DNA from: Candidatus Micrarchaeota archaeon
GTDB taxonomy: Archaea; Micrarchaeota; Micrarchaeia; Anstonellales; Bilamarchaeaceae
Assembly (NCBI GenBank): GCA_040754495.1
Contig: JBFMCO010000049.1
Span: 1 to 11,137 of the forward strand
Direction of reading: 5' to 3'
DNA length: 11,137 nucleotides
This document shows positions 2 through 11,137 of the stretch, one piece after another. The translations under genes and the position numbers were made by a program. Under the pieces are notes generated by a model. It saw only the letters and a program-made list of their open reading frames with translations, ran no database searches and was not told where the DNA came from. Position 1 is the stretch's first letter. The number at the start of each line of letters is the position of its first letter.

Positions 2-1165
2 TCGAAACAAATAACCGCTCCGCCAAAAGTCCCGGAGCCGGAAGAACCCGCACAGCCAAAAGCAGAAGCACCGAAACCGGCTATCAAAACCGAACCGGCA
101 AAACCGACCCCGGCTCTTGCGCCAGAATCCGAACCGGCCCCGCCCGAAGCGGCTGTGCCCGAACCAAAACCGGCCCCCCTGCCGCCCGCGAAACCGGAAG
201 CGGTCCAGCCAAAACCCGAAACCCGGGACCGGAGACCACCTGAGCCTGCAGGCGTCGAGGAGAAGCCCAGGGAAAGGCTCAAGCTCGGTCTCGTGGGCGC
301 GGTCAAAAGCATCATAACGCGGGAAGTGGAGATAAGCGAAAATGACGTGAAGGGGATGCTTGATGGCCTGGAGCTGGAGCTGCTTGAGGCGGACGTGGAG
401 CTCGGCGTGGCCGAGGGAATAAAGGCCGAGCTGGAAGGCAGGCTTGTCGGCTCGAAGGTGAAAAAGGGCGAGCTTCACTCATTCGTGTCAGGCTCGATAA
501 AGGAGACGCTCATATCCATCCTGAGCAACGACAAGGCGTTCGACATCGTGGAGAGGGTGGATGCGGGCGAGAAGCCCGTGAAAATAATGTTCATAGGCAT
601 AAACGGCGCGGGCAAGACCACGACAATAGCGAAGGTGGCGAGGCTCCTCCAGGCAAGAGGCAGGAAGCCGGTCCTTGCGGCAGCGGACACATTCAGGGCA
701 GCGGCAATCGAGCAGATGGGCGTGCACGCGGAGAGGCTCGGCCTGAAGATGATAAAGCGGGAATACGGCAGCGACCCGACCTCTGTGGCCTATGACGCGG
801 TGAATTACGCGAAGGCCCACGGCATGGACGCGGTCCTCATAGACACGGCCGGAAGGCAGGACACGAACATCAGCCTGCTGAACGAGATAAAGAAGATGGA
901 CCGCGTGATAAAGCCGGACGCGAAGATATACGTCGGGGAGAGCATAGCCGGGAACGCCATCCTGGAGCAGATAGCCGCCTTCAACCGGGAGGTCGGGCTT
1001 GACGCGGTCATACTTACAAAGCTCGACTGCGACCCGAAAGGGGGCACCATGCTTTCGATAAACAAGGCGACCGGAGTCCCCATCATCTATGTCGGGGTGG
1101 GCCAGGGCTATGACGATTTGGAGCGCTTCGACCCGGAGCGCATGGTTTCGCGCATCTTATCTTAG
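2..1165 (+). CDS. ftsY: Signal recognition particle receptor GTPase FtsY, archaeal type (5'-partial; true start lies upstream of the window)
   Basis: The frame is open from nt 2 (SKQITAPPKVPEPEEPAQPKAEAPKP...), so the track's start at 155 is an internal GTG. SRP-GTPase motifs: LLEADV in the N domain, G1 GINGAGKTTTIAK (596-), DTFRAAAIEQ, G3 DTAGR (842-856), G4 TKLD (1016-1027), KGG, and C-terminal GVGQGYDDL. There is no C-terminal M domain, so this is the receptor and not SRP54. 'KREYGSDPTSVAYDAV' resembles archaeal FtsY. Stop is TAG at 1163-1165. Confidence 0.97.
   Translation, partial: SKQITAPPKVPEPEEPAQPKAEAPKPAIKTEPAKPTPALAPESEPAPPEAAVPEPKPAPLPPAKPEAVQPKPETRDRRPPEPAGVEEKPRERLKLGLVGAVKSIITREVEISENDVKGMLDGLELELLEADVELGVAEGIKAELEGRLVGSKVKKGELHSFVSGSIKETLISILSNDKAFDIVERVDAGEKPVKIMFIGINGAGKTTTIAKVARLLQARGRKPVLAAADTFRAAAIEQMGVHAERLGLKMIKREYGSDPTSVAYDAVNYAKAHGMDAVLIDTAGRQDTNISLLNEIKKMDRVIKPDAKIYVGESIAGNAILEQIAAFNREVGLDAVILTKLDCDPKGGTMLSINKATGVPIIYVGVGQGYDDLERFDPERMVSRILS
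211..241 (+). repeat. Degenerate heptamer tandem repeat (AAAA-CCCGAAA-CCCGGGA-CCGGAGA-CCACCT) embedded in frame in the ftsY linker
   Basis: Three 7-nt units read directly from the sequence, encoding KPETRDRRPP. Ungapped 23/31 identity to the reverse complement of 5425-5455. Confidence 0.6.
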
Positions 1166-1190
1166 AGCACGAAGAACCACAAATCAATAC

Positions 1191-1199
1191 TTTTTTAAA
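1191..1199 (+). promoter_or_regulatory. Putative archaeal TATA box (TTTTTTAAA) for the 1260 gene; the T6 run may also terminate ftsY transcription
   Basis: Lies in an AT-rich 94-bp intergenic gap (1166-1259) within a GC-rich window. It is preceded by an A-rich stretch (CAAATCAATAC) and sits about 60 nt before the ATG. No TSS data. Confidence 0.45.
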
Positions 1200-1249
1200 C
1201 ACTAGCCGACACATAATCCTACAAAATATCATAATACTGAGACTCAGGC

Positions 1250-1255
1250 AGGTGA
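1250..1255 (+). promoter_or_regulatory. Shine-Dalgarno site AGGTGA
   Basis: The GGTG core (1251-1254) ends 5 nt before ATG 1260, the same spacing as at the other two starts in the window. Confidence 0.75.
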
Positions 1256-1259
1256 CGTT

Positions 1260-4200
1260 ATGGCGGGAGACGATACGACGGGGATGAAACAGGCTCAGAC
1301 GAAAGACAGCGGCGCAGCGGCTGCCGGAAGGGGAAGGAAGGCGCTGGAGTGGACCAAGGGGCACGTGCCGTTCACGCCGTGGAGGAAGGCTTACAAGGAG
1401 GAGAAGAAGAGGGGCGGCATAGAGGAGGAAGAGCGCATCAGGCACGAGACCAGGCAGAAGCTCCAGGGAAACGGCGAGCAGGCCCAGTCCGGCGCGGGCC
1501 CGAAGGTCAATCCCAACGTCGACGTCAAGGCCACGAGGGGCGAGGACCTCACCACGTTCAACAGGCATTTCCTGGACGCCATCAGGCGCGGCCAGAGCAG
1601 GACCGAGCAGGCTGGCACTGCTGACGCGCTCATCCGCGAGGTCGTCACCAATGACCAGTTCATAGACGCTGTCGCGAACGGGACGATAAAGACGCCGCTC
1701 GAGCAGGTCGATTCCGAGTACGCCAAGGACATGGCGAGGAAGAGGGGCGGCCTTGCCGACAGCCTGAGGAGGGCCAAGCACTTCAAGGAGTTCATGATAG
1801 GCGAGCTGACCGCCCAGGAGCTCGACGTACTTTTCGTCACCATGCTCGGCACCGCCGAGGAAGACGAGGGCGAAGAGCGCAAGAAGAAAAAGGGAGCGGA
1901 AGACGAGAGGGACAAGGGAAAGAAGGGCGCGGTGGCGCTGTGGAACGGCACGGCGTGGCCGGAGGAGGTCCCGAGGCCGCACGAGGCATTCTTCGTCTTC
2001 CTCGAGAGCCTTGCGATGAGGCTTCGGAGCACTCCGGAGGAGCAGGGAAACTTCATCGGCATGGTGTGCAAGGACCTCTCGTGGAGGAGGACGTTCACCG
2101 AGTCCGGGGAGCAGACGCTGCGCCTGCTCGTGGACGCTGCATTCATAAACGACTGGCTTTACTCGAAATCTTCTTATCCTACGGACAAGGCCGTCGAGAG
2201 CTTCCATTCGCTCGCGGCGAGCGCGCTAAGCACGCCCACTGGCGAGATGCACCCGGTGCTGAAGATGCCGGGCATCGGCTACGACCAGGGATACCAGAAG
2301 GCCCTGGCGGAGAAGAAGCTGTGGATAGGCGAGGCGGAGCAGTGGGTGGCCCAGGCCACGCAGGGCCTGGAGCAGGCAACGGCTGCTGTCGCGGTCGCTG
2401 AAAGCAGGGCCGAGAGCGCAAAGGCCGAGTACCAGAGGGTGCTCGGCCTGGCCAAGAAGGCCGAAGAGAAGGGAAGCGTAACGCTGAGAGGCGGGAAGGT
2501 CCTCAAGCCCGGCGACGCGGAGCTGACGGGCGCACTCGCAGCCGCAGAGGGCGGCGTCGCGAAGGCGAACCAGGAGCTCCACAAGGCCAGGCAGTGGGAG
2601 CTTAACGCCCAGAACGCGCTCGGGAAGGCGAGGAAGGAGCTTTCCCAGCGCGAAACAGAGGTGGCTTCTTTCGAGAAGGACTCCAACCCGCAGGCGCTTG
2701 CCAAGGAGCTGGCGCGGCACTTCAAGTCCCTCCTCGAGGCGAATGGCGAGGTCAACGTTTCCCTGGACGATATTCCGGCGCGCATGGCGCCGAGGCTGCC
2801 GAACCCGGTCGTGGACAAGCTCGTGGAGCAGGCTACTGCGCTCATCAGCGAGAGGGAGGAGTTCGCTCCAGTGTTCCTCGGAACGCAGATGGTGGACGCG
2901 TCCGCGCCGGACGAGGGCAAGAAGGGCTCGTCATCGTCCACGCAGATAGTGAGGGACATAATCGGATATCGGCTTCCTGATTTCGAGGCGAGGGTGAATG
3001 AATTCGATGCCGCGGTGGAAGCGGCGGAGCTGCCGGCGGAAGCCAAGGAGCCGCTGCGCGGCGTAGGGAGGGGGCTCAAGCACTTCGGGGTGCCGGCCGC
3101 TTTCCTGAGCGAGCAGGTCTCCAAGGTGAGGACCGCGCACTCGGAACCGCTGCGCAAGGCCGCGCAGGTCGCCATAAAGAGCCTGAAGGAAAGGAGCTAC
3201 AGGAACCTCGCAACCCCGACCGACGCTGTGAAGGTAATCGCGAGGATGACCTACGAGGGCCGCACAGGAGAGGTCCCCCCGGGAAGCGCGAACAAAGAGG
3301 GCAAGTGGAAGCGCGCATGGCACTGGATCAGGTACCAGCTTTTCACCGGCGAGTCGTGGAAGAACAAGGGGCTGTGGCTCTACAAGCAGACTTACGCGGA
3401 CGATTTCGACGACCTCCGCTACAGGAACTGGAAGCAGAGGAGGTCGGGACGCAGGCCGGACGGCACGCCTTACCGGAGGAGCACGCCCAGATGGATGGAC
3501 GGCCTCTGGGGCGTCACGTGGAAGACGTACGTCCTTGCCATGGCGGTCGGCTACATGGCCGGTCAGGAGCGGGCCAAATGGTACTGGCCGCCTTCCTGGC
3601 CCGCGCCTGCCGTGAGGTATGTGGCGAACGAGGCGTTCAATGCCGGCTGGGGACCGTACCGCACGAGCGAGCACAGGTACCTTATGCCATGGACGCTCCT
3701 TGCGCCCCTCGAATCCGAGAGGGAGATAAAGCTCGTGATACACGACAACTGGGACATCCCTGCGAGGCTGGCCACGCGCGGAGACACGTACTACCGGAAC
3801 ACCTACGGCGTCGGCACGCACAGGCTGGAATCCGAGCAGAACGATTCCGGCATGAGGGCGAGGCTCACATGGCTCCAGCAGCACCCGGACGTCATGAGGT
3901 TCTTCCAGGAGCGCACCACGCTGCGCCAGGACGTCACCGTCAGGTACCTGGAGGAGAACCCGAACACGTGCAGCACGAGGCAGAGGCCGATCCCGCAGAC
4001 GTGCGAGCACGAGGGGCTCGGCCTGCGCACAAGCGAACGGCTGCAGGCGTACACGCCTTCCCAGCGGGACCCGAGGTGGCAGCCCGGAATGAAGGTCTGC
4101 TGCACGATTGAGGTGAGCAGCAGGCGGGTGCCGGACGGCCTCAAGCTGAACACGCGCACGTCCGACCAGTTCGTGGACCTGCTCATGGCCGCGGAAAGGG

Positions 4201-5390
4201 GAGGTACGGCCGTGAATTACGCCTACCTCAATAGCGGGCAGAACAGGGCAAGGTGGGTCCAGGAGTGGTTCCTGGTGACGCCGGGCGAGGCTGACATAAT
4301 CAATAACTACAAAATAACCGTGAGGGACAACGTCCGCTTCCTGCTCATGCAGGGGGCGGATGCCGGAGGCCATCTCCTGCCGCGCTGCGCGCAGGAGGCG
4401 CTCTCGCCGGAATACCTGCAGGAGGCGCACAGGGACGAGTTCGTTAACGCCTGGAGGGCGGCGCTCGTCTCAAGGGGAGCGCAGGCCCAGCCGCCGGTGA
4501 CGGTGGAGCCGCTCACCCAGGACCTCACAAGGGAGGACCTCGAGGCCGCGTTCAACTCGGTCAGGGATGCGAACCGCGGGTGGTTCACGGACAGGACGCA
4601 CCAGTACGAGCGCAGGCAGGTGCTCCAGCAGGTGCCGGAGCTGCAGCTCCAGACCGACACCGCAATAGACGTCCTCGTGGCGCAGCCGGACATACTCGCC
4701 CTCGTGAGGGAGTTCAGGTCGCCTGCACGCTACGGCATAACGCAGGGAAGGGCCGACGAGTTCGTCCAGAGGCTGGACCAGCACAAGCGCGCGGGCGGAA
4801 GACTGCTCGAATTCAACCCGTTCTCGACCGAGACCGGGGCAGGCTCGCTGGTACAGCAGGCGGTGAACGTGGACGGCCTGCTCTTCGACAGGGAGACCGA
4901 GACGCTGCACGCGGCGGACGGCCAGTCCAGGGAAGGCGATGCAGGCGCGCAGTCCGCAGCACCCGCGAGGGTCCCGCTGCCGGAATACTCGCAGGACGTG
5001 CGGCGCTTCTACGAGAACCAGGAGAACGAGCCCTTCAGGAACATGGTCGAGGGCGCGCTGAGCGTCCTGCTCGAGGACAGGCAGTTCGGCGCGACTACGC
5101 GCGCAGTGCTCGCCAACAGCTTCGGGAACGACAGGGCGAGGATGGAGGGCACCATAAAGGCGCAGGTCTACTCGTTCTTCACGAGCACGAGGGAGGCCGA
5201 CGTCTCCATAAGGAGGGGCTACCGATTCACGATGAGTGGCGAGGGTCCCGCCATGGTGGTGAGGCCCTCGAGGACCGACGGCCCGGGCATGATGGAGGCT
5301 TCCAGGAACATCCAGAGCTATGTGAGGCAGTACGTGGGCAGCCTCCAGCAGAGGCCTGCACCGGCCGCTCCTGCAGCCTCGTCCAGGTAA
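1260..5390 (+). CDS. Large hypothetical protein (1376 aa), probable membrane-anchored protein with an N-terminal coiled-coil region and a C-terminal, probably extracytoplasmic region
   Basis: Long ORF with SD site and AGG/AAG/GAG-rich codon usage like ftsY. Coiled-coil-like helices at about aa 342-473. Trp-rich zone at aa 683-831 around the weakly hydrophobic segment GLWGVTWKTYVLAMAVGYMAG (aa 748-768). Cys cluster at aa 904-948. No recognisable catalytic motif or signal peptide. The CDS is secure; the product is inferred. Confidence 0.9.
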   Translation: MAGDDTTGMKQAQTKDSGAAAAGRGRKALEWTKGHVPFTPWRKAYKEEKKRGGIEEEERIRHETRQKLQGNGEQAQSGAGPKVNPNVDVKATRGEDLTTFNRHFLDAIRRGQSRTEQAGTADALIREVVTNDQFIDAVANGTIKTPLEQVDSEYAKDMARKRGGLADSLRRAKHFKEFMIGELTAQELDVLFVTMLGTAEEDEGEERKKKKGAEDERDKGKKGAVALWNGTAWPEEVPRPHEAFFVFLESLAMRLRSTPEEQGNFIGMVCKDLSWRRTFTESGEQTLRLLVDAAFINDWLYSKSSYPTDKAVESFHSLAASALSTPTGEMHPVLKMPGIGYDQGYQKALAEKKLWIGEAEQWVAQATQGLEQATAAVAVAESRAESAKAEYQRVLGLAKKAEEKGSVTLRGGKVLKPGDAELTGALAAAEGGVAKANQELHKARQWELNAQNALGKARKELSQRETEVASFEKDSNPQALAKELARHFKSLLEANGEVNVSLDDIPARMAPRLPNPVVDKLVEQATALISEREEFAPVFLGTQMVDASAPDEGKKGSSSSTQIVRDIIGYRLPDFEARVNEFDAAVEAAELPAEAKEPLRGVGRGLKHFGVPAAFLSEQVSKVRTAHSEPLRKAAQVAIKSLKERSYRNLATPTDAVKVIARMTYEGRTGEVPPGSANKEGKWKRAWHWIRYQLFTGESWKNKGLWLYKQTYADDFDDLRYRNWKQRRSGRRPDGTPYRRSTPRWMDGLWGVTWKTYVLAMAVGYMAGQERAKWYWPPSWPAPAVRYVANEAFNAGWGPYRTSEHRYLMPWTLLAPLESEREIKLVIHDNWDIPARLATRGDTYYRNTYGVGTHRLESEQNDSGMRARLTWLQQHPDVMRFFQERTTLRQDVTVRYLEENPNTCSTRQRPIPQTCEHEGLGLRTSERLQAYTPSQRDPRWQPGMKVCCTIEVSSRRVPDGLKLNTRTSDQFVDLLMAAERGGTAVNYAYLNSGQNRARWVQEWFLVTPGEADIINNYKITVRDNVRFLLMQGADAGGHLLPRCAQEALSPEYLQEAHRDEFVNAWRAALVSRGAQAQPPVTVEPLTQDLTREDLEAAFNSVRDANRGWFTDRTHQYERRQVLQQVPELQLQTDTAIDVLVAQPDILALVREFRSPARYGITQGRADEFVQRLDQHKRAGGRLLEFNPFSTETGAGSLVQQAVNVDGLLFDRETETLHAADGQSREGDAGAQSAAPARVPLPEYSQDVRRFYENQENEPFRNMVEGALSVLLEDRQFGATTRAVLANSFGNDRARMEGTIKAQVYSFFTSTREADVSIRRGYRFTMSGEGPAMVVRPSRTDGPGMMEASRNIQSYVRQYVGSLQQRPAPAAPAASSR

Positions 5391-5414
5391 TTTTTTTCTC
5401 TTCTTCTATATTTC
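5391..5414 (+). terminator. Archaeal-type oligo(T)/pyrimidine-rich intrinsic terminator
   Basis: TTTTTTTCTCTTCTTCTATATTTC begins immediately after the TAA stop (5388-5390). Confidence 0.65.
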
Positions 5415-5424
5415 CTGTCTTCGT

Positions 5425-5514
5425 AGGTGGTCTCCAGTTTTCAGTTTCCAGTTTTGTTTTTGAATAAAACCCGGACACGGAGCATCGGAACCGGAAACTG
5501 GAGACCCGAAACCC
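5425..5514. repeat. Inverted pair of degenerate heptamer tandem repeats (REP/STRR-like), able to form a stem-loop
   Basis: The left arm TCTCCAG-TTTTCAG-TTTCCAG (5431-5451) faces a right arm of six units: CCCGGAC-ACGGAGC-ATCGGAA-CCGGAAA-CTGGAGA-CCCGAAA (5470-5511). There is a perfect 12-bp inverted repeat GGTCTCCAGTTT (5429-5440) / AAACTGGAGACC (5495-5506), and an inner mini-hairpin GTTTT-TGAAT-AAAAC (5456-5470). Confidence 0.8.
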
Positions 5515-5542
5515 ATTTGCCCGCCTGAGGTATCTTAGTATA

Positions 5543-5551
5543 TTATATAAA
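5543..5551 (+). promoter_or_regulatory. Putative archaeal TATA box (TTATATAAA) for the 5582/5900 operon
   Basis: Good match to a TATA box, ending about 30 nt before ATG 5582, which would give a short leader containing GGTG. Confidence 0.65.
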
Positions 5552-5572
5552 CTTGCCCGGCGAATCCTTACC

Positions 5573-5576
5573 GGTG
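5573..5576 (+). promoter_or_regulatory. Shine-Dalgarno core GGTG
   Basis: Ends 5 nt before ATG 5582. Confidence 0.55.
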
Positions 5577-5581
5577 TTGGC

Positions 5582-5890
5582 ATGCCTAAAAAAGGGGCGA
5601 AAGATTCTGTGAAAAAGGTTCCTGTGAAGGCGGACACGGCTGCTCTTGAGGAGCAGACGCTGGCAAAAGTCGAGCGGACGCTGAGGACGCTCGGTGATTT
5701 CCTCTCAAGATGGGACTCCGCCGAGACCAAGCCGGACAGCATGTATCCGGAAGTCGTGAAGATGAGGAGGTTCCGCGACATGCTCCTCTCGTGGAAGCAG
5801 GATGCCGAGAAGGCCCGCGGCAGGAGCGACGAGAAGGGCCGCATCAGGAGGCTCAGGGATTTCGTGGTGCTCTGCAAGATATACTCATGA
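5582..5890 (+). CDS. Small basic helical hypothetical protein (102 aa), probably cytoplasmic; candidate chaperone or immunity partner of the downstream giant protein
   Basis: Has TATA and GGTG signals upstream, typical codon usage and amphipathic helices (LAKVERTLRTLGDFLSRW; VVKMRRFRDMLLSWKQ; RIRRLRDFVVLCKIY). Its stop overlaps the SD site of the next gene. No family recognised. Confidence 0.8.
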   Translation: MPKKGAKDSVKKVPVKADTAALEEQTLAKVERTLRTLGDFLSRWDSAETKPDSMYPEVVKMRRFRDMLLSWKQDAEKARGRSDEKGRIRRLRDFVVLCKIYS

Positions 5891-5894
5891 GGTG
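5889..5894 (+). promoter_or_regulatory. Shine-Dalgarno site GAGGTG overlapping the upstream stop codon (translational coupling)
   Basis: The sequence reads TGAGGTGTTCCTATG; the GGTG core (5891-5894) ends 5 nt before ATG 5900. Confidence 0.75.
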
Positions 5895-5899
5895 TTCCT

Positions 5900-8800
5900 A
5901 TGACTGGCCAGGCTATGCGCGAAAGACAGGGGCAAGAGGCGGTGGAAGCGCCGCGGGAGGCGGTCGTTCCGAGGGTGGCTGACGAGGGCGAGGGGCTCCG
6001 CAGGCAGCGCGAGCAGGCGGCGGCGACCATTGCCCAGCTCCAGCAGGCGTCGAGAGTGATACGGGTGCCGGGCGACGTCCGGGCCGAAATCGAGAGCCGC
6101 ATCCGCGTGCTCGATGCCATGCGCCAGGCTGGCGTGCCCATCCTGCAGGACCGCTACAACAACGAGATAGACTACATAAGCGGAATCCTCCGCCAGGCGC
6201 TCCGGGCGAGCGATGACAACCGGAGCACGGACGCGCTCCGCATACTGGAGTCGGCCACGGCCATGATGGCGTTCCTCGGGCGCATCTACGAGGTGGAATT
6301 AGGGATAGCGATACGCGGCGTCCCGCCGGGGCTCGAGAACGGGGAGCAGACCTGGACCGACCTGCTCGACTCGATGGAAGTAGTTCTGTTCGACATCGGG
6401 ACCGCGAACTCCCGCAGGGCCGAGACAGTTCTCAGTGCAGGCCGCCTCATTTTCGAGTTCGGCACCACTTACAACGTCGATGACATTGCCATAAAAGGGG
6501 AGCTGAACAGGGTCGTCAACTTCATAATAGACCGAGGCGTCAGGAAGGGGACGACCGCTGATGCAAGGGCCGCGCAGGCCTACACCGCGAGGGACGCGAG
6601 GGCGGACGAGCGCGAGATTGCGACGTTCAGGAGGTTCATAGAATCCGCCTCGCGGGGCTTGGGCGAGGAGAGGGTCGCGCTGCTCACCGGCTGGAGGCAG
6701 GACCTCGAAACGAGGATAGGCCAGTTGGGCGCGCAGGAGCGCACGAGGGCGCTTCTCGAGACGCTGAGAGGCGACATCGACGCGCTGCTTGTCAGGCTGC
6801 GCAACGAGCGCGCTGTGCGCGATGTCACGGACCAGGAGGTACGCGAAATCGAGAACAGGTACAGGATGCTGAGCGGGCAGGAGCCTCTGCTATCCTCCGA
6901 GCAGCGCCAGGACGAGGTGCGAAGCTCCGCAGTGGAGCTGAGGGGCACGGCCAGGACTGTCCGGGAAGGGACCGCGGAATGGTTCGGCCAGAAGGCCCTC
7001 GACGCCCTCGCAAGGGGGGAGAGGGAGCTTGCGGGCCTTGCGGTAGCTATGGGCATTCTCGAGAGGACGGCGGCAGCCGTGCGCAGGAGGGGCTCTGATT
7101 ATCTTCCGCCGGACTCGTACCGGCTCGTCATGGAACTCCTCGCGGCGAGGGGGCAGCTCACTCCGGTGCTCGCGAGCAGGCTCGCAAACGACATCAGCGT
7201 AGCGGCCCTTGCAGCGGACATCGCGCGGCTCGGGAGCGAGAACCCGGTCCGCGGGAGAGGGGTTGCGCGCGAGCGGGCGCAGAGGATAAACGATGCTGTG
7301 GCGGAAGCCAGGCGCCTGCTCGAGCGCGGCGATATCGAGGGCGTGCGCACGCTGCTCGACATGTCTTCCCAGTACGCGGCGATGGTGAGTGCAAGGAGGG
7401 GGCGCGACTGGACGGGCTCATCCGAGATGGAGGCCGCGCTCGACGCGCAGATGCGCGGGGTGGATTCGAGGCAGAGGTTCGAGGACGCGCTCACAAGATA
7501 CAACTTCTCCCAGCAGACGACGGAATTCAGGCAGCGCCTCGAGGGATGGGGGCGCAGGCTGGAGCAGAAGCAGCTTGCCGTCCGCGCAATCGAGCATGTC
7601 GAGAGCCTGGTCGGGCAGGGGAATTTCCAGGAGGCGCAGAGCACGATGCTCCGGCTTCTCATGTTCGCCGACTCGGTGGAGCTGCTGGGCGTCCGGCGCG
7701 GCGGGAAAATCGAGTCCCTCAATCCGCGCTACGACGGCTCAGGCATGGAGCGGGCGCTCGGGGCGTTCATCGCCGGGCAGTCCCAGGTGGAGGGCAGGGG
7801 AGCAGAGACGCTATTCATGGAGAGCTTCGCCTCCACCCAGCGCAACGCCGTGGACCTCGAGGCGACAAGGCTCGCGGACTTGGCGAGGACGAACCGCTGG
7901 ACGATAGGGAAGGACAGGATAGATGCCGCCCTGCAGGCAGCGCGCGACCGCGCCGCACAGGGGGATTTCGAGGGCGCATTCAGGATTATCCGGTACGTGA
8001 AGCAGTTCTACGGAGAGGCGGCCGCCGCAATCCCCGCGCAGGGCGGGCAGCCTGCCGTTCCCGCGCGCAGCGCAGGATGGAGGTACCAGCTCGCGAGGCG
8101 CGAGGGCGCCGGATTCAGGGAGGGCCGCGAGAGGATGCTGGACGCCATCCGCATGGAGAGTGATGCTACGGCGCCGGAAAGGCGCGAGGCGGCAGCCAGG
8201 ATGTTCGAGGCCGCCACCATGAGGATTGCCGAGTGCGAGATGCTCATCAGCAATTATGCCGAGAAGAGGAGCATGTACATGGGCGAAACGCCCCTGGCCT
8301 CCGGCCATCCTGCCGGACGGCTCCTCCTCGGCTACGCGCAGGACCGGACGCCGGTCTATATCGACCTCGCGATTGTCCGCGATTACGAGACCAGGCACGC
8401 GCGCGACACGTCGCTGGGGAGCGGCCCGACGCTCGCGCAGCTTTTCACCCAGCTCGAGACCGCGGCCAACAACGGCGACGTGAGCGGATACAACAGGACG
8501 CTTGAAGCCATTTTCGGAAGGTATGACGAGGGGACGCAGGGCATGGCGGGCGGCAGGTTCTGGCTGGTGGCCCAGAGGGCGGCCAGGATGCAGATGATAG
8601 ACTCCGCCATCACGCAGCTGAATTCCATGGGTGGGTTCCTCGGCCAGCTTCCGAATTATGAGGCGCTCCCGAACGACGCGAGGCGGCTCGCTGAGATAAG
8701 GGCGCTTGTGGACAGCGGTGCCAGCAAGGTGGACCTGGCGCAGGCCCTTGCGCGCAACACGCGCGAGAGGCAGGAGGAGGTCGCAGCCGGGACGCTCACG

Positions 8801-11137
8801 CAGACGAGGCAGACGCTGGAGACGCAGAGGACCTCCACGATAGCAAGGCTCAACGCGATGAGGTATACGACCGAGGAGGTCGTGACGGTGGAGGGCGGAC
8901 GGTCCGCGCTCGACGATTATGCCTCGCTGGTTTCCTCGATGGAGCGCGAGCGCAGGATATCCATAGGCATGGCGCAGGTCGGCGAGGAAGTCCGGCTGAA
9001 CGATGAGTACAGGAAGGCGATTGCAGGGGAGAGCGGAGACATCCGGAACCGGACGGTAGGGCTGCTTGACGAGTGCAAGCGCCTGCTCGAAGAGTGCCGC
9101 ACCGCGGTGAGGGAAGGCAGGTTCGAGGACGCGGTCCGGCTCTACGACCGGGCCATAGAATCGCGCGGCTCCGCGCTGCAGACTTATTGGGCCGAGAACG
9201 TGCTCAACTTCTATTACGTTTCCGCGGCGCACCGCGCTTCGCACGCGGACCGCCCGGACCCGAGGTTCTTCCCGGCTCTCCGGCTCCAGCAGGAGCAGAT
9301 GGAGATACAGCCGTACCTTGACGCGCACCACCAGATTTTCAGGGAGCTCCTTTTCGGAAGCGTCAGCGGCGACCCGCAGGCGTATGCGGAGAGGATGCAG
9401 CGCAGGCTCCAGGGGACCGTGCAGATTGAGGTTTCCATATTCGCGGTGCCCTCAGACGCGACAAGCCAGGTGCTCGACGATTACCGGGCCGAGCAGCGCA
9501 GCGTCCGCCAGTCGGTTTACGCTGCGTGGAGGCTTGAGGACCAGGCCGTGCGGATGAGCCCGGGTGCCGAGCGCGAATCGCTCATGGCAAGGGCGCAGAG
9601 GGAGTTCACGGACGCGCAGGCGCAGATACAGGAGATGCAGAGGAGGGCCGAGAGGAACAGGTTCATCGCAAAGGTCGCGCTTATCGTGGTCGGCATAGCG
9701 GCCGCGTTCATCCCGGTCGTGGGCCCGTTCATCTCGGGCGGCATATTCATAGGGATGTCCATAGACCAGATAGCGACCGAGTACAGGAGGGACGGCCATG
9801 CCTCTGCCGAATCGTGGGCCATGCTCGGGCTGACCGTAGTCACGCTGGGCTTTGCCGGCGTGGGCGCCGCGTTCCGCGGGCTTGCCACCACGGCAAGGAC
9901 CGGTGGAGAGGCAATGGTGCTTGCAGGGAACATCGCGAGGGCGGAGCAGCTGCTGCTCACCGCCAGCAGATACTCGAGCGTCAGCAGGGCATTCAGCGGG
10001 ACCGCGCTCGCCGTAGGGCTTGGCATGAGCGGGTACATGGAAATCGGCGCGTACAACCTTTACCGGCAGGCCCAGCGCGAGACAGACCCGGTCAGGAAGG
10101 AGGCGCTCATGAGGGAAGCCGTGCTCATGGCCGGAATGGGGCTTTTCCCGATTGTCCATATAGGCTCATCGCTCGCCTACCGGGGTTTCACCGCCCCGCC
10201 GAGGGCGAGGCTTAGCACCGCCCTCGCCGAGGTTTCGCCTGTCCGCGAGGCCGCGCGCGTGGCTGCCGAAGAGCCGGTCGCGGCCAGGGTGCGGAGGCCG
10301 GACGGATTGTTCGACCTCCTTACCAGGCTCAGGAGCAGCGACGCCGCGGTGCGCACTGCCGCCGAGGCCGAGCTTGCCGCGCTCCCGGAGCCGGTGCGCG
10401 TCGGAATCGGCCAGCTCGCCGCGAACGTAAGGGTAGGCGGCGGACCGACATACCTCAACCTGACAAGAGCCTTGCAGACCGGGGAGCTCACGCCCTTCGC
10501 GAGGGCGGAGCTTGAAGGCGCAATCGGGATGCTGGCTGCCGAAGGCCCGAGGCCTCCGACATCACCGACCCGCGGGCCTGGAGGAGGCGGGCCGAGGACG
10601 ACGAGGCCGGAGGTGGATTCGGCAGGGCTCGCGGACGCTTTCGGGCTCCGCCAGATTCTTGCGGACTTGCTCGTGCCGGACGGGGCTCCTGCGCAGGCGC
10701 TTGCGAGGCGCTCTTCGGCCCGCGCAATGCTTGAGAGGATAAGGGGCGATGCGCGCACCGCGCCGATAGCTGACATGATAGACAATCTCATAGGCAACCC
10801 TGAGCGCGGGATTGCCGGCAGGGAGGCGTTCAGGACCGCGGTCGGCAGCGACACGCCATACGAACTGCTCGACCCGTTCACGACGAGGGCCCTTGAGAGG
10901 GCCGCCGGCCAGATAGAGGGCATGCTGAGGCCGCAGGTCATGAGGGCCGCGGTAGGCCAGACGCAGCCGGTGGAGGAAGCCGCACAGCCGCAGACGCTCG
11001 GCGGGCAGGGCGCGGCTGAAGGCATCGGCGGCACGATTCCCACAAGGGCTTCAGCAGGCGAAGGCGGGAGGCCGGGTGCCGGAGGCGGCGAAGTCGTGCC
11101 CGGACGCGTCTCGCCAGCCGAAGGCGGAGGAGGCCAG
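5900..11137 (+). CDS. Giant hypothetical protein (at least 1746 aa, 3'-partial): helical-repeat rod, coiled coil, multi-helix hydrophobic (membrane/translocation-like) domain and tandem helical modules
   Basis: Hand translation from ATG 5900 (MTGQAMRERQGQEAVEAPREAVVPRV...) stays open to the last base (...VSPAEGGGGQ). It is missing from the ORF track, presumably because no stop occurs in the window. SD site present, codon usage matches the other genes. Hydrophobic segments at 9674-9763, 9812-9874, 9989-10039 and 10118-10180. Confidence 0.93.
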   Translation, partial: MTGQAMRERQGQEAVEAPREAVVPRVADEGEGLRRQREQAAATIAQLQQASRVIRVPGDVRAEIESRIRVLDAMRQAGVPILQDRYNNEIDYISGILRQALRASDDNRSTDALRILESATAMMAFLGRIYEVELGIAIRGVPPGLENGEQTWTDLLDSMEVVLFDIGTANSRRAETVLSAGRLIFEFGTTYNVDDIAIKGELNRVVNFIIDRGVRKGTTADARAAQAYTARDARADEREIATFRRFIESASRGLGEERVALLTGWRQDLETRIGQLGAQERTRALLETLRGDIDALLVRLRNERAVRDVTDQEVREIENRYRMLSGQEPLLSSEQRQDEVRSSAVELRGTARTVREGTAEWFGQKALDALARGERELAGLAVAMGILERTAAAVRRRGSDYLPPDSYRLVMELLAARGQLTPVLASRLANDISVAALAADIARLGSENPVRGRGVARERAQRINDAVAEARRLLERGDIEGVRTLLDMSSQYAAMVSARRGRDWTGSSEMEAALDAQMRGVDSRQRFEDALTRYNFSQQTTEFRQRLEGWGRRLEQKQLAVRAIEHVESLVGQGNFQEAQSTMLRLLMFADSVELLGVRRGGKIESLNPRYDGSGMERALGAFIAGQSQVEGRGAETLFMESFASTQRNAVDLEATRLADLARTNRWTIGKDRIDAALQAARDRAAQGDFEGAFRIIRYVKQFYGEAAAAIPAQGGQPAVPARSAGWRYQLARREGAGFREGRERMLDAIRMESDATAPERREAAARMFEAATMRIAECEMLISNYAEKRSMYMGETPLASGHPAGRLLLGYAQDRTPVYIDLAIVRDYETRHARDTSLGSGPTLAQLFTQLETAANNGDVSGYNRTLEAIFGRYDEGTQGMAGGRFWLVAQRAARMQMIDSAITQLNSMGGFLGQLPNYEALPNDARRLAEIRALVDSGASKVDLAQALARNTRERQEEVAAGTLTQTRQTLETQRTSTIARLNAMRYTTEEVVTVEGGRSALDDYASLVSSMERERRISIGMAQVGEEVRLNDEYRKAIAGESGDIRNRTVGLLDECKRLLEECRTAVREGRFEDAVRLYDRAIESRGSALQTYWAENVLNFYYVSAAHRASHADRPDPRFFPALRLQQEQMEIQPYLDAHHQIFRELLFGSVSGDPQAYAERMQRRLQGTVQIEVSIFAVPSDATSQVLDDYRAEQRSVRQSVYAAWRLEDQAVRMSPGAERESLMARAQREFTDAQAQIQEMQRRAERNRFIAKVALIVVGIAAAFIPVVGPFISGGIFIGMSIDQIATEYRRDGHASAESWAMLGLTVVTLGFAGVGAAFRGLATTARTGGEAMVLAGNIARAEQLLLTASRYSSVSRAFSGTALAVGLGMSGYMEIGAYNLYRQAQRETDPVRKEALMREAVLMAGMGLFPIVHIGSSLAYRGFTAPPRARLSTALAEVSPVREAARVAAEEPVAARVRRPDGLFDLLTRLRSSDAAVRTAAEAELAALPEPVRVGIGQLAANVRVGGGPTYLNLTRALQTGELTPFARAELEGAIGMLAAEGPRPPTSPTRGPGGGGPRTTRPEVDSAGLADAFGLRQILADLLVPDGAPAQALARRSSARAMLERIRGDARTAPIADMIDNLIGNPERGIAGREAFRTAVGSDTPYELLDPFTTRALERAAGQIEGMLRPQVMRAAVGQTQPVEEAAQPQTLGGQGAAEGIGGTIPTRASAGEGGRPGAGGGEVVPGRVSPAEGGGGQ

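What the first reader, a model, noticed from the sequence alone, without database searches (positions are those of the whole stretch)
1260..11137. Candidate undescribed three-gene contact/effector-delivery locus next to ftsY
Seen in the sequence: three co-oriented orphan genes. These are a 1376-aa protein whose composition flips across a membrane segment, a 102-aa Lys-rich protein, and, coupled to it, a giant of at least 1746 aa with no signal peptide, almost no Lys, a long helical rod, a coiled coil plus hydrophobic hairpin, and beads-on-a-string modules. Established knowledge: coiled coil followed by a Gly/Ala-rich hydrophobic hairpin, encoded next to a small cytoplasmic partner, is the logic of T3SS translocators (IpaB/SipB/YopB with their chaperones) and of AB or polymorphic toxins. 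Host-attached DPANN archaea form protein-mediated contacts whose genes are largely unassigned. Inference: this may be an archaeal anchor + chaperone/immunity + membrane-inserting effector system for host or competitor contact. No secretion machinery is visible in the window.
Basis: partly seen in the sequence, partly recalled or inferred. Interest (0 to 1): 0.8.

Follow-up and report, generated by a model that had tools for sequence, protein, structure and literature searches.

The report
Lysine-free giant-protein locus of Micrarchaeota
The three genes are real and form the left part of a conserved, fast-evolving five-gene block beside ftsY in a tiny symbiotic archaeon (Micrarchaeota); none of the three matches a known protein family, a small helper protein is modelled to bind the start of a membrane-embedded giant protein that has almost no lysine, and the block probably builds a cell-surface or host-contact device, though its function is untested.

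Summary
The window is a whole contig holding ftsY, A (1376 aa), S (102 aa) and the first 1746 aa of giant G.

- **Locus.** In relatives named Ca. Bilamarchaeum (Micrarchaeota), the order ftsY-A-S-G-D-E-pgm is conserved. G is 2700-3600 aa, D carries an SGNH esterase domain, and E is a ~2800-aa protein with a signal-like N-terminus.
- **No known family.** A, S and G match nothing in Pfam, NCBIfam, PHROGs or PADLOC. Two confident AlphaFold models (pLDDT 81 and 83) have no fold match.
- **Shared domain.** A and G end in the same ~125-aa domain.
- **S family.** S belongs to a family almost confined to Bilamarchaeaceae. It has ten copies in this genome, each just upstream of a large gene. A complex model supports S binding G residues ~29-139 (ipSAE 0.82, best control 0.00).
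- **Lysine status.** Lysine content of G is sharply bimodal among orthologs and independent of GC.
- **Reading.** My best reading (about 45%) is a membrane-anchored envelope or host-contact apparatus with S as G's dedicated chaperone or adaptor. Membership in T3SS translocators is not met, and an immunity role for S is unlikely.
- **Prior notes.** This scan noted orthologous loci before on other DNA. I found no paper describing them.

The parts
2..1165 (+). ftsY (5' end cut by the contig start), the conserved left flank of the locus
   Evidence: TIGR00064 293.6 bits against a cut-off of 260.7, and Pfam SRP54 E 5.8e-71. It is 63-79% identical in relatives and sits next to A in 16 loci.
1185..1259 (+). 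AT-rich promoter-like stretch and GGTGA ribosome-binding site upstream of A
   Evidence: Read directly from the sequence. Consensus-level only; no transcript data.
1260..5390 (+). Gene A, 1376 aa, a putative single-pass membrane protein of no known family
   Evidence: ORF. No Pfam or NCBIfam hit. Orthologs at 22-34% identity lie next to ftsY.
1260..3551 (+). A, N-terminal Lys-rich part (aa 1-764; K 8.0%, R 7.5%)
   Evidence: Composition split at the conserved hydrophobic segment.
3552..3614 (+). A, conserved moderately hydrophobic segment (aa 765-785), a candidate transmembrane helix after a basic PRW-x-RG motif
   Evidence: Alignment of 10 orthologs. It scores below the 1.6 Kyte-Doolittle cut-off in this genome and 1.68 in L020.
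3615..5387 (+). A, C-terminal Lys-poor folded part (aa 786-1376; K 1.0%, R 11.0%) with two invariant and two nearly invariant Cys
   Evidence: AlphaFold2 model of aa 790-1376, pLDDT 81.2. No fold match. Conserved C904, C915, C947, C948. Composition.
4971..5354 (+). A, C-terminal ~125-aa domain that also ends the full-length G orthologs
   Evidence: hhalign probability 98.8%, E 4.8e-17. It sits at the extreme C-terminus of A and G in the loci searched that hold a complete 3' end (weak in L027), and nowhere else in this genome.
5391..5581 (+). Intergenic region between A and S: T-run right after A's stop, then an AT-rich box (about 5531-5552) roughly 30-50 nt before S
   Evidence: Read from the sequence, plus a promoter-like hit at 5517-5546. 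It suggests S-G is a separate transcription unit; this is inferred.
5582..5890 (+). Gene S, 102 aa, with a Lys-rich N-terminal tail and a conserved helical body. It belongs to a small stand-alone family whose members precede large genes.
   Evidence: Orthologs are 43-51% identical. Ten paralogs in this genome each lie upstream of a large gene. There are 174 cluster representatives, all 49-184 aa. The model supports binding to G.
5900..11137 (+). Gene G, first 1746 aa of a giant. Orthologs are 2700-3600 aa, and a 91-95% identical strain reaches at least 2592 aa.
   Evidence: Open frame to the contig end. Collinear orthologs. L058 extension. K 0.74%, R 12.1%.
5984..6316 (+). G aa 29-139, the main modelled docking surface for S
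   Evidence: complex prediction: median ipSAE 0.82, best control 0.00. Interface residues 29-80 and 120-139, plus 185-189 and 304-308.
7232..8209 (+). G aa 445-770, three related tandem units of about 100-115 aa carrying a G-[DN]-[FI]-x-[EG]-[AV] motif
   Evidence: Motif positions 477, 574, 688. Pairwise hhalign: units 2 and 3 84% (E 7.6e-6), units 2 and 4 96% (E 8.6e-9), units 3 and 4 24%.
9659..10180 (+). G aa 1254-1427, a conserved cluster of Gly-rich hydrophobic segments (membrane module)
   Evidence: Hydropathy peaks 2.56, 1.88 and 1.65. Conserved motifs in 7 orthologs. The module is shared with the 6841-aa paralog on contig C22.
10505..10651 (+). G aa 1536-1584, Pro/Gly-rich linker
   Evidence: Composition scan; present at the same place in orthologs.
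10967..11137 (+). G aa 1690-1746, second Pro/Gly-rich linker, cut by the contig end
   Evidence: Composition scan. In L058 the linker continues and is followed by about 800 more residues.

Best explanation
The window holds the left part of a five-gene, roughly 24-kb locus (A-S-G-D-E) fixed between ftsY and pgm in the Ca. Bilamarchaeum genomes examined. It most likely builds a membrane-anchored cell-envelope or host-contact apparatus.

Proposed working:
- A is a single-pass membrane protein with a Lys-rich N-terminal half on one side and a folded, Cys-bearing, Lys-poor C-terminal half on the other.
- S is a small cytoplasmic partner, made from the same transcript just ahead of G. It clamps G's N-terminal helices as a dedicated chaperone or targeting adaptor.
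- G is a giant built as S-docking site, repeat scaffold, Gly-rich hydrophobic membrane module, linkers, a conserved C-terminal domain of unknown fold, and a terminal ~125-aa domain.
- A carries the same terminal domain, so the two C-termini probably meet or bind a common partner.
- The SGNH esterase protein D and the signal-bearing giant E complete the set.

Shown: gene order and conservation, the shared terminal domain, the S family's position upstream of large genes, and the lysine pattern. Modelled: S-G binding. Inferred: topology, export, host contact and every activity.
For: Locus conservation:
- A and G homologs were found in 17 and 20 of 24 same-genus genomes and in 0 of 16 genomes of other families of the order.
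- The order ftsY-A-S-G-D(-E) holds in L018-L026 and L046-L058.
- The right flank pgm-GGR is conserved.
- This genome's D and E lie on contig C16, which starts inside D.

Membrane and export features:
- G's hydrophobic cluster is conserved.
- A has a conserved hydrophobic segment after basic residues.
- E has a basic-then-hydrophobic N-terminus in 5 orthologs.
- D keeps the SGNH catalytic Ser, Asn and Asp-x-x-His.
- A and G share a C-terminal domain found nowhere else in the genome.

S as G's partner:
- S and G are 9 nt apart.
- S-like genes sit directly upstream of a large gene at 9 of this genome's 10 sites.
- Complex model: ipSAE 0.82 (runs 0.32, 0.82, 0.83) against a best control of 0.00, partner pLDDT at least 75, run-to-run contact agreement reported as at least 0%. 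In calibration this mark was reached by 58 of 80 solved complexes and 2 of 110 mismatched pairs; the counts hold only roughly because my own alignments were used.

Evolution and composition:
- FtsY is 63-79% identical among relatives, S 43-51%, and A and G 22-36%.
- G, D and E lose or keep lysine together in the seven loci compared, while S stays Lys-rich. A's C-terminal half is Lys-poor in four of the genomes with Lys-free G.
Against: - No domain of A, S or G could be tied to any known surface, adhesion, secretion or pore-forming family.
- G and D lack a signal peptide, and no export machinery lies in the locus.
- With an even number of membrane passes, G would be wholly cytoplasmic.
- A's membrane segment is only weakly hydrophobic in this genome.
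- A's C-terminal half is Lys-normal in L019 and L023 although their G and D are Lys-free, so the 'same compartment' argument is imperfect.
- Lysine depletion has other possible causes.
- The host of these archaea is unknown, and there are no expression or protein data.
Confidence: 0.45

Rival explanations
1. Intracellular membrane-bound scaffold. G stays on the cytoplasmic face of the archaeon's own membrane, wedged in by a hairpin that does not cross it. Together with A it shapes or organises the membrane (division site, cell-cell bridge base, cortical skeleton). S acts as an assembly factor.
For: - G and D have no signal peptide.
- G has a long repeat-containing N-terminal region.
- The hydrophobic segments are Gly-rich, short, and contain conserved polar residues, as in re-entrant hairpins.
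- The locus sits among housekeeping genes (prefoldin, ftsY, pgm).
- S binding at the N-terminus suits a cytoplasmic assembly factor.
Against: - E has a signal-like N-terminus and shares G's lysine status.
- A's two halves differ in composition across the hydrophobic segment.
- A's C-terminal half carries four conserved Cys.
- The locus diverges much faster than its neighbour ftsY, which is unusual for a core cytoskeletal part.
- It was not found in other families of the order.
Confidence: 0.2
2. Contact-dependent toxin or effector. G is exported, inserts its hydrophobic module into a host or competitor membrane and carries a harmful C-terminal domain. S is its chaperone or immunity protein, and A is the anchor.
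For: - The central hydrophobic module is followed by linkers and a conserved C-terminal domain with invariant N, D, D and a retained Lys.
- G is almost lysine-free with Arg kept high. From my own knowledge, this is also seen in toxin chains that enter cells with lysine-directed tagging.
- Paralogous S-linked giants in this genome were described in earlier scan notes as carrying kinase-like modules (not tested here).
- The sequence diverges rapidly.
Against: - G's C-terminal part is collinear and conserved among orthologs rather than swapped.
- No toxin or effector family was found by sequence or fold.
- S binds the N-terminus, lies upstream and is the best-conserved gene of the three, unlike immunity proteins.
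- The locus has a fixed site and one copy per genome in most relatives.
- No delivery machinery was identified.
Confidence: 0.17
3. Remnant of a virus or mobile element, for example a tape-measure-like giant with accessory genes, lodged beside ftsY.
For: Giant, fast-evolving genes of unknown family with lineage-restricted distribution.
Against: - The site and gene order are the same in all 16 loci that keep the upstream flank.
- No integrase, tRNA or repeat boundary was seen in the ORF lists.
- No PHROG family reached significance; the only row is S with E 0.0062 and no qualifying stretch.
- No BFVD fold match at E <= 0.001.
- Local GC composition resembles that of ftsY.
Confidence: 0.03

Closest known systems
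T3SS translocators with class II chaperones (IpaB/SipB/YopB with IpgC/SicA/SycD)
   Same: A small partner is encoded next to a large protein that has hydrophobic membrane segments. The partner is modelled to bind an N-terminal region of that protein.
   Different: - No sequence relationship: Pfam T3SSipB appears only once, at E 0.78, in 1 of 10 A orthologs and never in G.
- S has no TPR hit.
- G is 5-6 times longer.
- No injectisome is known in archaea (my own knowledge).
T6SS Eag-type (DUF1795) chaperones with transmembrane-domain effectors, and polymorphic toxin systems in general (named from my own knowledge)
   Same: The logic is similar: a dedicated small protein holds part of a large multidomain membrane-inserting protein, and the locus is modular and fast-evolving.
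   Different: - S binds soluble N-terminal helices in the model, not the hydrophobic module.
- G's C-terminal part is conserved, not polymorphic.
- There is no small downstream immunity gene; D is about 780 aa.
- No PAAR, Rhs or LXG family membership: LXG appears once at E 0.0034 in 1 of 10 A orthologs.
SPEARE-type giant surface proteins of Nanohaloarchaeota (PMC10266531 and work cited there)
   Same: Giant proteins of a DPANN episymbiont thought to mediate host contact.
   Different: SPEARE proteins are defined by recognisable protease, adhesion and endonuclease domains. A and G show no such Pfam domain, and no homology was detected.
S-linked giant paralogs of the same genome (6841-aa protein on contig C22, 6147- and 6652-aa proteins on C42; earlier scan notes e1-1066231, e1-5723573)
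   Same: Each has an S-family gene immediately upstream. The C22 giant shares G's repeat scaffold (G 336-1093, 30% identity) and hydrophobic module. Both lysine states occur among them.
   Different: The paralogs are 2-2.5 times longer than full-length G orthologs and, by the earlier notes, carry kinase-like modules. G orthologs show no BLAST match to those regions. The paralogs lack the A-type C-terminal domain and are not beside ftsY.

Membership tests
T3SS translocator (IpaB/SipB/YopB) | Sequence membership in the translocator families (Pfam T3SSipB, SseC and the like) | tested here: not met
   G and its 6 orthologs have no hit. A: 1 of 10 orthologs hits T3SSipB at E 0.78, far below threshold.
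T3SS translocator (IpaB/SipB/YopB) | Hydrophobic transmembrane hairpin preceded by a coiled coil | tested here: inconclusive
   The conserved hydrophobic cluster at G 1254-1427 is present. No coiled-coil predictor was run.
T3SS translocator (IpaB/SipB/YopB) | TPR-type class II chaperone partner | tested here: not met
   S has no TPR or any other Pfam or NCBIfam hit. It is basic and only 102 aa.
T3SS translocator (IpaB/SipB/YopB) | Injectisome genes in the genome | not tested
   I did not search this 80%-complete genome for injectisome families.
Polymorphic toxin system | Variable C-terminal toxin domain on a conserved N-terminal body | tested here: not met
   Orthologs are collinear to the end. 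The C-terminal 700 aa form the best-conserved stretch of the C-terminal ~1200 aa.
Polymorphic toxin system | Recognised toxin domain | tested here: inconclusive
   No Pfam, PDB-sequence, Foldseek, VIA or BFVD match for the modelled C-terminal part. Absence of a match does not exclude an unknown toxin fold.
Polymorphic toxin system | Small immunity gene immediately downstream | tested here: not met
   The next gene is D, 520-930 aa, with an SGNH domain in most orthologs.
SPEARE-type giant proteins (Nanohaloarchaeota) | Serine protease, adhesion and restriction-endonuclease domains | tested here: not met
   No such Pfam domains in A, G or their orthologs.
   No Pfam or PHROG hit. The only tape-measure rows in BFVD have E 0.09-0.8 and TM about 0.1. 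Only G's C-terminal 718 aa (from an ortholog) and A's C-terminal 587 aa were modelled. G's N-terminal 1250 aa was not folded alone.
SGNH/GDSL hydrolase (gene D, outside the window) | Pfam Lipase_GDSL_2 above threshold plus catalytic Ser, Asn and Asp-x-x-His | tested here: met
   PF13472 72.4 bits (cut-off 32.9) for this genome's D on C16. GDS, GxN and DHLH blocks are present. PDB GDSL and PAF-acetylhydrolase matches.
FtsY (left flank) | NCBIfam TIGR00064 above the curated cut-off | tested here: met
   293.6 bits against 260.7.
S-family small partners of Bilamarchaeaceae giants (undescribed; defined in this scan) | Profile match plus position directly upstream of a large gene | tested here: met
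   The window's S scores E 2e-47 against the ortholog profile. Nine further paralogs in this genome match, eight of them abutting a large gene. Family spread.

The most novel reading that the evidence does not exclude
The locus is part of a lysine-avoidance system at a symbiont-host interface. The exposed components (G, D, E, and in some species one half of A) have been purged of lysine, one module at a time and in some lineages but not others. The purge lets them escape a lysine-directed attack or tagging system of the partner organism, or self-modification by an enzyme of the locus. The only lysine-rich piece, the tail of the small partner S clamped onto G's N-terminus, is left as the single designated lysine acceptor or membrane/nucleic-acid handle that controls the giant's fate.
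Probability: 0.15. Interest if true: 0.9.

Novelty: categorically new. Interest (0 to 1): 0.72.

Why it matters
How DPANN archaea attach to and exploit their hosts is largely unknown at the molecular level. Micrarchaeota in particular have no assigned contact genes. This locus gives a defined candidate set of five co-inherited genes at a fixed site, with concrete parts to test:
- a modelled small-partner/giant interface (S 22-102 with G 29-139);
- a conserved membrane module;
- a domain shared by two of the proteins;
- an apparently active esterase.

The all-or-none lysine status is independent of GC. One example: 6 Lys against 295 Arg codons in a 39%-GC genome whose neighbouring ftsY has 32 against 15. 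This is a strong and unexplained selection signal that could reveal a lysine-directed conflict between archaea. If instead the proteins are cytoplasmic, they would represent a new kind of archaeal membrane scaffold.

Tried and rejected
**Family libraries.** Nothing significant for A, S, G or G's C-terminal part in Pfam, NCBIfam, PHROGs or PADLOC. Isolated weak rows were dismissed as chance: Rod-binding, TPR_7, LXG, Cap15, T3SSipB, DUF4781 and phrog_2820, each in one or two sequences only.

**PDB sequence search.** The profile of G's C-terminal part gave a best E of 0.061.

**Fold searches of two confident models.**
- Foldseek PDB found no match at E <= 0.001.
- VIA wide gave best Z 5.8 and 4.9, on small helical pieces.
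- ESM Atlas by shape gave TM <= 0.2.
- BFVD found nothing.
- ESM Atlas by features found no usable hit for A's C-terminal part or for S.

**Homolog searches.** A word-indexed search for more G C-terminal homologs returned only the query's own cluster. The search for A returned 5.

**Sequencing runs.** No RNA holder was listed. Only small word shares (0.16 and 0.06) appeared in groundwater metagenome runs of one study. I did not lay reads.

**Exoproteome test.** My crude test of whether exported proteins are Lys-poor genome-wide gave 18% against 10% of proteins with K < 1.5%. It is too noisy to use, because rough ORF calling in a 64%-GC genome lets in shadow ORFs.

**FtsY tree.** The tree built to count lysine-status switches was poorly resolved: 3 changes on the best tree, but the well-supported branches force only 1.

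**Literature.** Searches for Bilamarchaeum, Micrarchaeota with giant protein, DPANN with giant and lysine, and lysine-free effectors found no description of these genes.

**Misannotation.** One S homolog (P0077) is labelled 'ribosomal protein S15P/S13E' by its source. I reject this because S has no Pfam ribosomal hit.
Full report
**What is in the window**

The window is an entire 11,137-bp contig (C49) of a 1.63-Mb, 72-contig genome estimated 80% complete. All genes are on the + strand:
- the 3' part of ftsY (2-1165; TIGR00064 293.6 bits against a cut-off of 260.7);
- A (1260-5390, 1376 aa);
- S (5582-5890, 102 aa);
- G (5900 to the contig end, 1746 aa, still open).

A has its own AT-rich upstream stretch and a GGTGA site. 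After A's stop comes a T-run, then an AT-rich box about 30-50 nt before S. S ends 9 nt before G's ATG, with GGTG between them. So A probably stands alone and S-G are coupled; this is inferred from sequence only.

A, S and G have no Pfam or NCBIfam match.

**Which organism**

Contigs of relatives that carry S orthologs are named Candidatus Bilamarchaeum or Micrarchaeota by their depositors. Ca. Bilamarchaeum belongs to Bilamarchaeaceae, Anstonellales, Micrarchaeota, described from groundwater (PMC8561730). The upstream genes (L31e, eIF6, LX, prefoldin alpha, ftsY) are a typical archaeal set.

**The locus is conserved and larger than three genes**

- With single-protein queries, G homologs were found in 20 and A homologs in 17 of 24 same-genus genomes. 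Neither was found in 16 genomes of other families of the order.
- In every locus I fetched with enough sequence, the order is ftsY, A (1250-1580 aa), S (104-124 aa), G (2700-3600 aa), D (520-930 aa), then E.
- ftsY lies directly upstream in 16 loci.
- In four genomes followed further, E (about 2800-2900 aa where complete) is followed by pgm and a geranylgeranyl reductase. The same arrangement is on this genome's contig C16.
- C16 begins inside D at about residue 120. The missing piece of this genome is therefore G's last ~1100-1200 codons and D's start.
- A contig from a 91-95% identical strain (L058, GCA_964540525.1) extends G to at least 2592 aa at 92.5% protein identity.

**Rate of change**

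FtsY is 63-79% identical among these genomes. S is 43-51% identical, and A and G only 22-36%. The locus is vertically kept at one site but evolves fast.

**Anatomy of G**

- Residues 445-770 hold three related tandem units of about 100-115 aa. Pairwise hhalign gives 84% (E 7.6e-6) and 96% (E 8.6e-9) between unit 2 and units 3 and 4, and 24% between units 3 and 4.
- Residues 1254-1427 hold a conserved cluster of Gly-rich hydrophobic segments with conserved polar motifs, such as EYR-x-x-GH-AS-x-ESW and G-M-A-x-F-P-W-x-H-M-G-G.
- Two Pro/Gly-rich linkers follow.
- In orthologs the protein continues with a helical region, then a conserved ~450-aa domain with invariant Asn, Asp, Pro, Asp, then a short linker and a terminal ~125-aa domain.
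- An AlphaFold2 model of the last 718 residues of the L022 ortholog is confident (pLDDT 82.8).
- That model has no match in PDB by Foldseek, by the exhaustive VIA search (best Z 4.9) or in BFVD.
- I did not fold G's N-terminal 1250 residues alone, so 'long helical rod' and 'coiled coil' remain untested.

**Anatomy of A**

- A conserved, moderately hydrophobic stretch at about aa 765-785 follows a basic PRW-x-RG motif.
- It scores under my transmembrane threshold in this genome, so a membrane helix is likely but not certain.
- The part after it (aa 790-1376) folds confidently (pLDDT 81.2) and carries four conserved Cys, two invariant and two nearly so.
- It has no fold match: Foldseek none, VIA best Z 5.8 on a 66-residue piece, Atlas TM <= 0.2.
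- Its last ~125 residues are homologous to the end of G (hhalign 98.8%, E 4.8e-17).
- This domain sits at the extreme C-terminus of both proteins in the loci searched that hold a complete 3' end (weak in L027), and nowhere else in this genome. The two C-termini therefore probably pair or share a partner. That is inference.

**S is a dedicated partner**

- The S profile finds ten genes in this genome. Nine lie directly upstream of, and mostly abut, a large gene of 366 to 6841 aa.
- A broader profile finds the family in 27 of 28 genus genomes, 12 of 48 genomes of other genera of the family, and 1 of 325 other genomes sampled from the phylum.
- An exhaustive search of 1.84 billion representatives gives 174 members, all 49-184 aa and never fused.
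- The complex prediction of S with G(1-450), both given as alignments, passed. ipSAE was 0.32, 0.82 and 0.83 (median 0.82) against 0.00 for all three controls. Partner pLDDT was at least 75. Run-to-run contact agreement was reported as at least 0%.
- The pass mark was reached by 58 of 80 solved complexes and 2 of 110 mismatched pairs in calibration. These counts hold only roughly, because my own alignments were used.
- The interface uses S 22-71 and 88-102, which includes the conserved RLRDFV...Y-S end, and G 29-80 plus 120-139. S's Lys-rich tail (aa 1-21) is left free.
- This supports binding; it does not prove it. It fits a chaperone or adaptor. It does not fit an immunity protein, which would be expected to mask a C-terminal toxic domain.

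**The lysine pattern**

- G has 0.74% Lys and 12.1% Arg. This genome's D has 0.5% Lys and E 0.4%. My rough ORF-based genome medians are 4.6% and 7.1%.
- This is not a GC effect. Among 25 G orthologs, lysine is either <= 0.5% (14 sequences, locus GC 39-66%) or 3.6-8.1% (11 sequences, GC 38-63%), with nothing between.
- In the 39%-GC relative L018, G has 6 Lys and 295 Arg codons (203 of them AGA), while its ftsY has 32 and 15.
- At alignment columns where Lys-normal orthologs have Lys, the Lys-free ones most often have Arg (27%).
- G, D and E share their status in the seven loci compared. S is always Lys-rich (6-22%).
- A's two halves switch independently. The C-terminal half is Lys-poor in this genome, L018, L022 and L025. 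The N-terminal half is Lys-poor (1.7-2.3% Lys, 12% Arg) in the 38-42%-GC relatives L020 and L021. L019 and L023 have a Lys-normal A beside Lys-free G and D.
- One Lys in G's conserved C-terminal domain (L022 position 2443) is retained in three Lys-free orthologs.
- A single-gene FtsY tree could not fix the number of switches (1 to 4).
- I have no tested explanation for this pattern. It shows strong, module-wise selection against lysine, and that the two halves of A are under different regimes. The latter is what one expects for the two sides of a membrane.

**The other two genes**

D has an SGNH/GDSL domain above the Pfam threshold, with Ser, Asn and Asp-x-x-His intact in this genome. E begins with a basic stretch, a ~20-residue hydrophobic segment and a conserved G-x-N-[IL]-N-x-L-G...A-M-A motif, like an export signal.

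**Interpretation**

The best-supported reading is a membrane-anchored envelope or host-contact apparatus, with S as G's chaperone or adaptor. I put it at about 45%. The rivals are:
- a cytoplasmic membrane scaffold (about 20%);
- a mobile-element remnant (about 3%).

The remainder is unassigned. Polymorphic-toxin membership also fails, on the conserved C-terminus and the lack of a small downstream gene.

**Relation to earlier notes and the literature**

This scan had already noted orthologous loci and the S-giant pairing on other DNA (e1-1068670, e1-5475041, e1-3376034, e1-2886914; e1-1066231). I re-derived the following independently:
- the gene order and the fixed site;
- the S family's position upstream of large genes;
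- the lysine pattern.

My sampling places the S family almost wholly inside one family of the phylum. I found no paper that describes these genes.

Noticed in passing
own genome contigs C72:9645-10076, C42:3106-3459 and 26389-26742, C22:19804-20178, C65:2185-2616, C55:18736-19041 and 17216-17539, C40:4574-4873, C31:48820-49191: Nine further S-family genes. Eight sit directly upstream of a large gene (366 to 6841 aa); for C55:17216-17539 no abutting gene was called. Some downstream proteins are Lys-free (C42 6147 aa, K 0.3%) and others Lys-normal (C22 6841 aa, K 5.1%; C42 6652 aa, K 6.6%) within the same genome.
   Followed up: partly
L058:3094-7220 (GCA_964540525.1, a 91-95% identical strain): Gene A is broken there: the frame ends after aa 1202, and a separate 171-aa ORF follows. 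This is either a real frameshift that detaches the shared C-terminal domain or an assembly error.
   Followed up: no
L046 (G183:C2:3500-23499): Two G-like giants lie on the same strand, one on either side of the S gene. One is 2913 aa. The other, upstream of S where A would be expected, is at least 1882 aa and is cut by the end of the stretch I fetched. Both are Lys-free and both end in the A/G terminal domain. This looks like a local duplication.
   Followed up: no
L023 (G002:C2), oriented 7424-16179: G is split into ORFs of 175, 411 and 2360 aa, with one TAG and one TAA reported inside the match. The gene is either decaying or carries sequencing errors.
   Followed up: no
L018:2990-4552 (G024): The D ortholog is only 521 aa and lacks the whole SGNH esterase domain, so the esterase is not indispensable to the locus.
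   Followed up: no
window 2-300 (FtsY aa 1-100): FtsY starts with a long Pro/Ala/Glu/Lys-rich low-complexity region ahead of its N and G domains. Its length varies among relatives.
   Followed up: no
window 3969-4103 (A aa 904-948): Four conserved Cys (C904, C915, C947, C948; C904 and C947 invariant, the other two nearly so) sit in an otherwise Cys-poor protein. They could be two disulfides or a metal site. I could not inspect the model's coordinates.
   Followed up: no
own genome, e.g. C15:1-10241, C67:13145-21058, C56:49727-56362, C51:145-6351: A second class of giant proteins is poor in both Lys and Arg (K 0.5-1.5%, R 1-3%), some with signal-like N-termini. They look like ordinary surface proteins and are distinct from the Arg-rich, Lys-free S-linked giants.
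   Followed up: no
P0077 (JGI record, 101 aa): One S-family member is labelled 'ribosomal protein S15P/S13E' by its source. This is probably a misannotation prompted by the Lys-rich tail and the ribosomal neighbourhood.
   Followed up: partly
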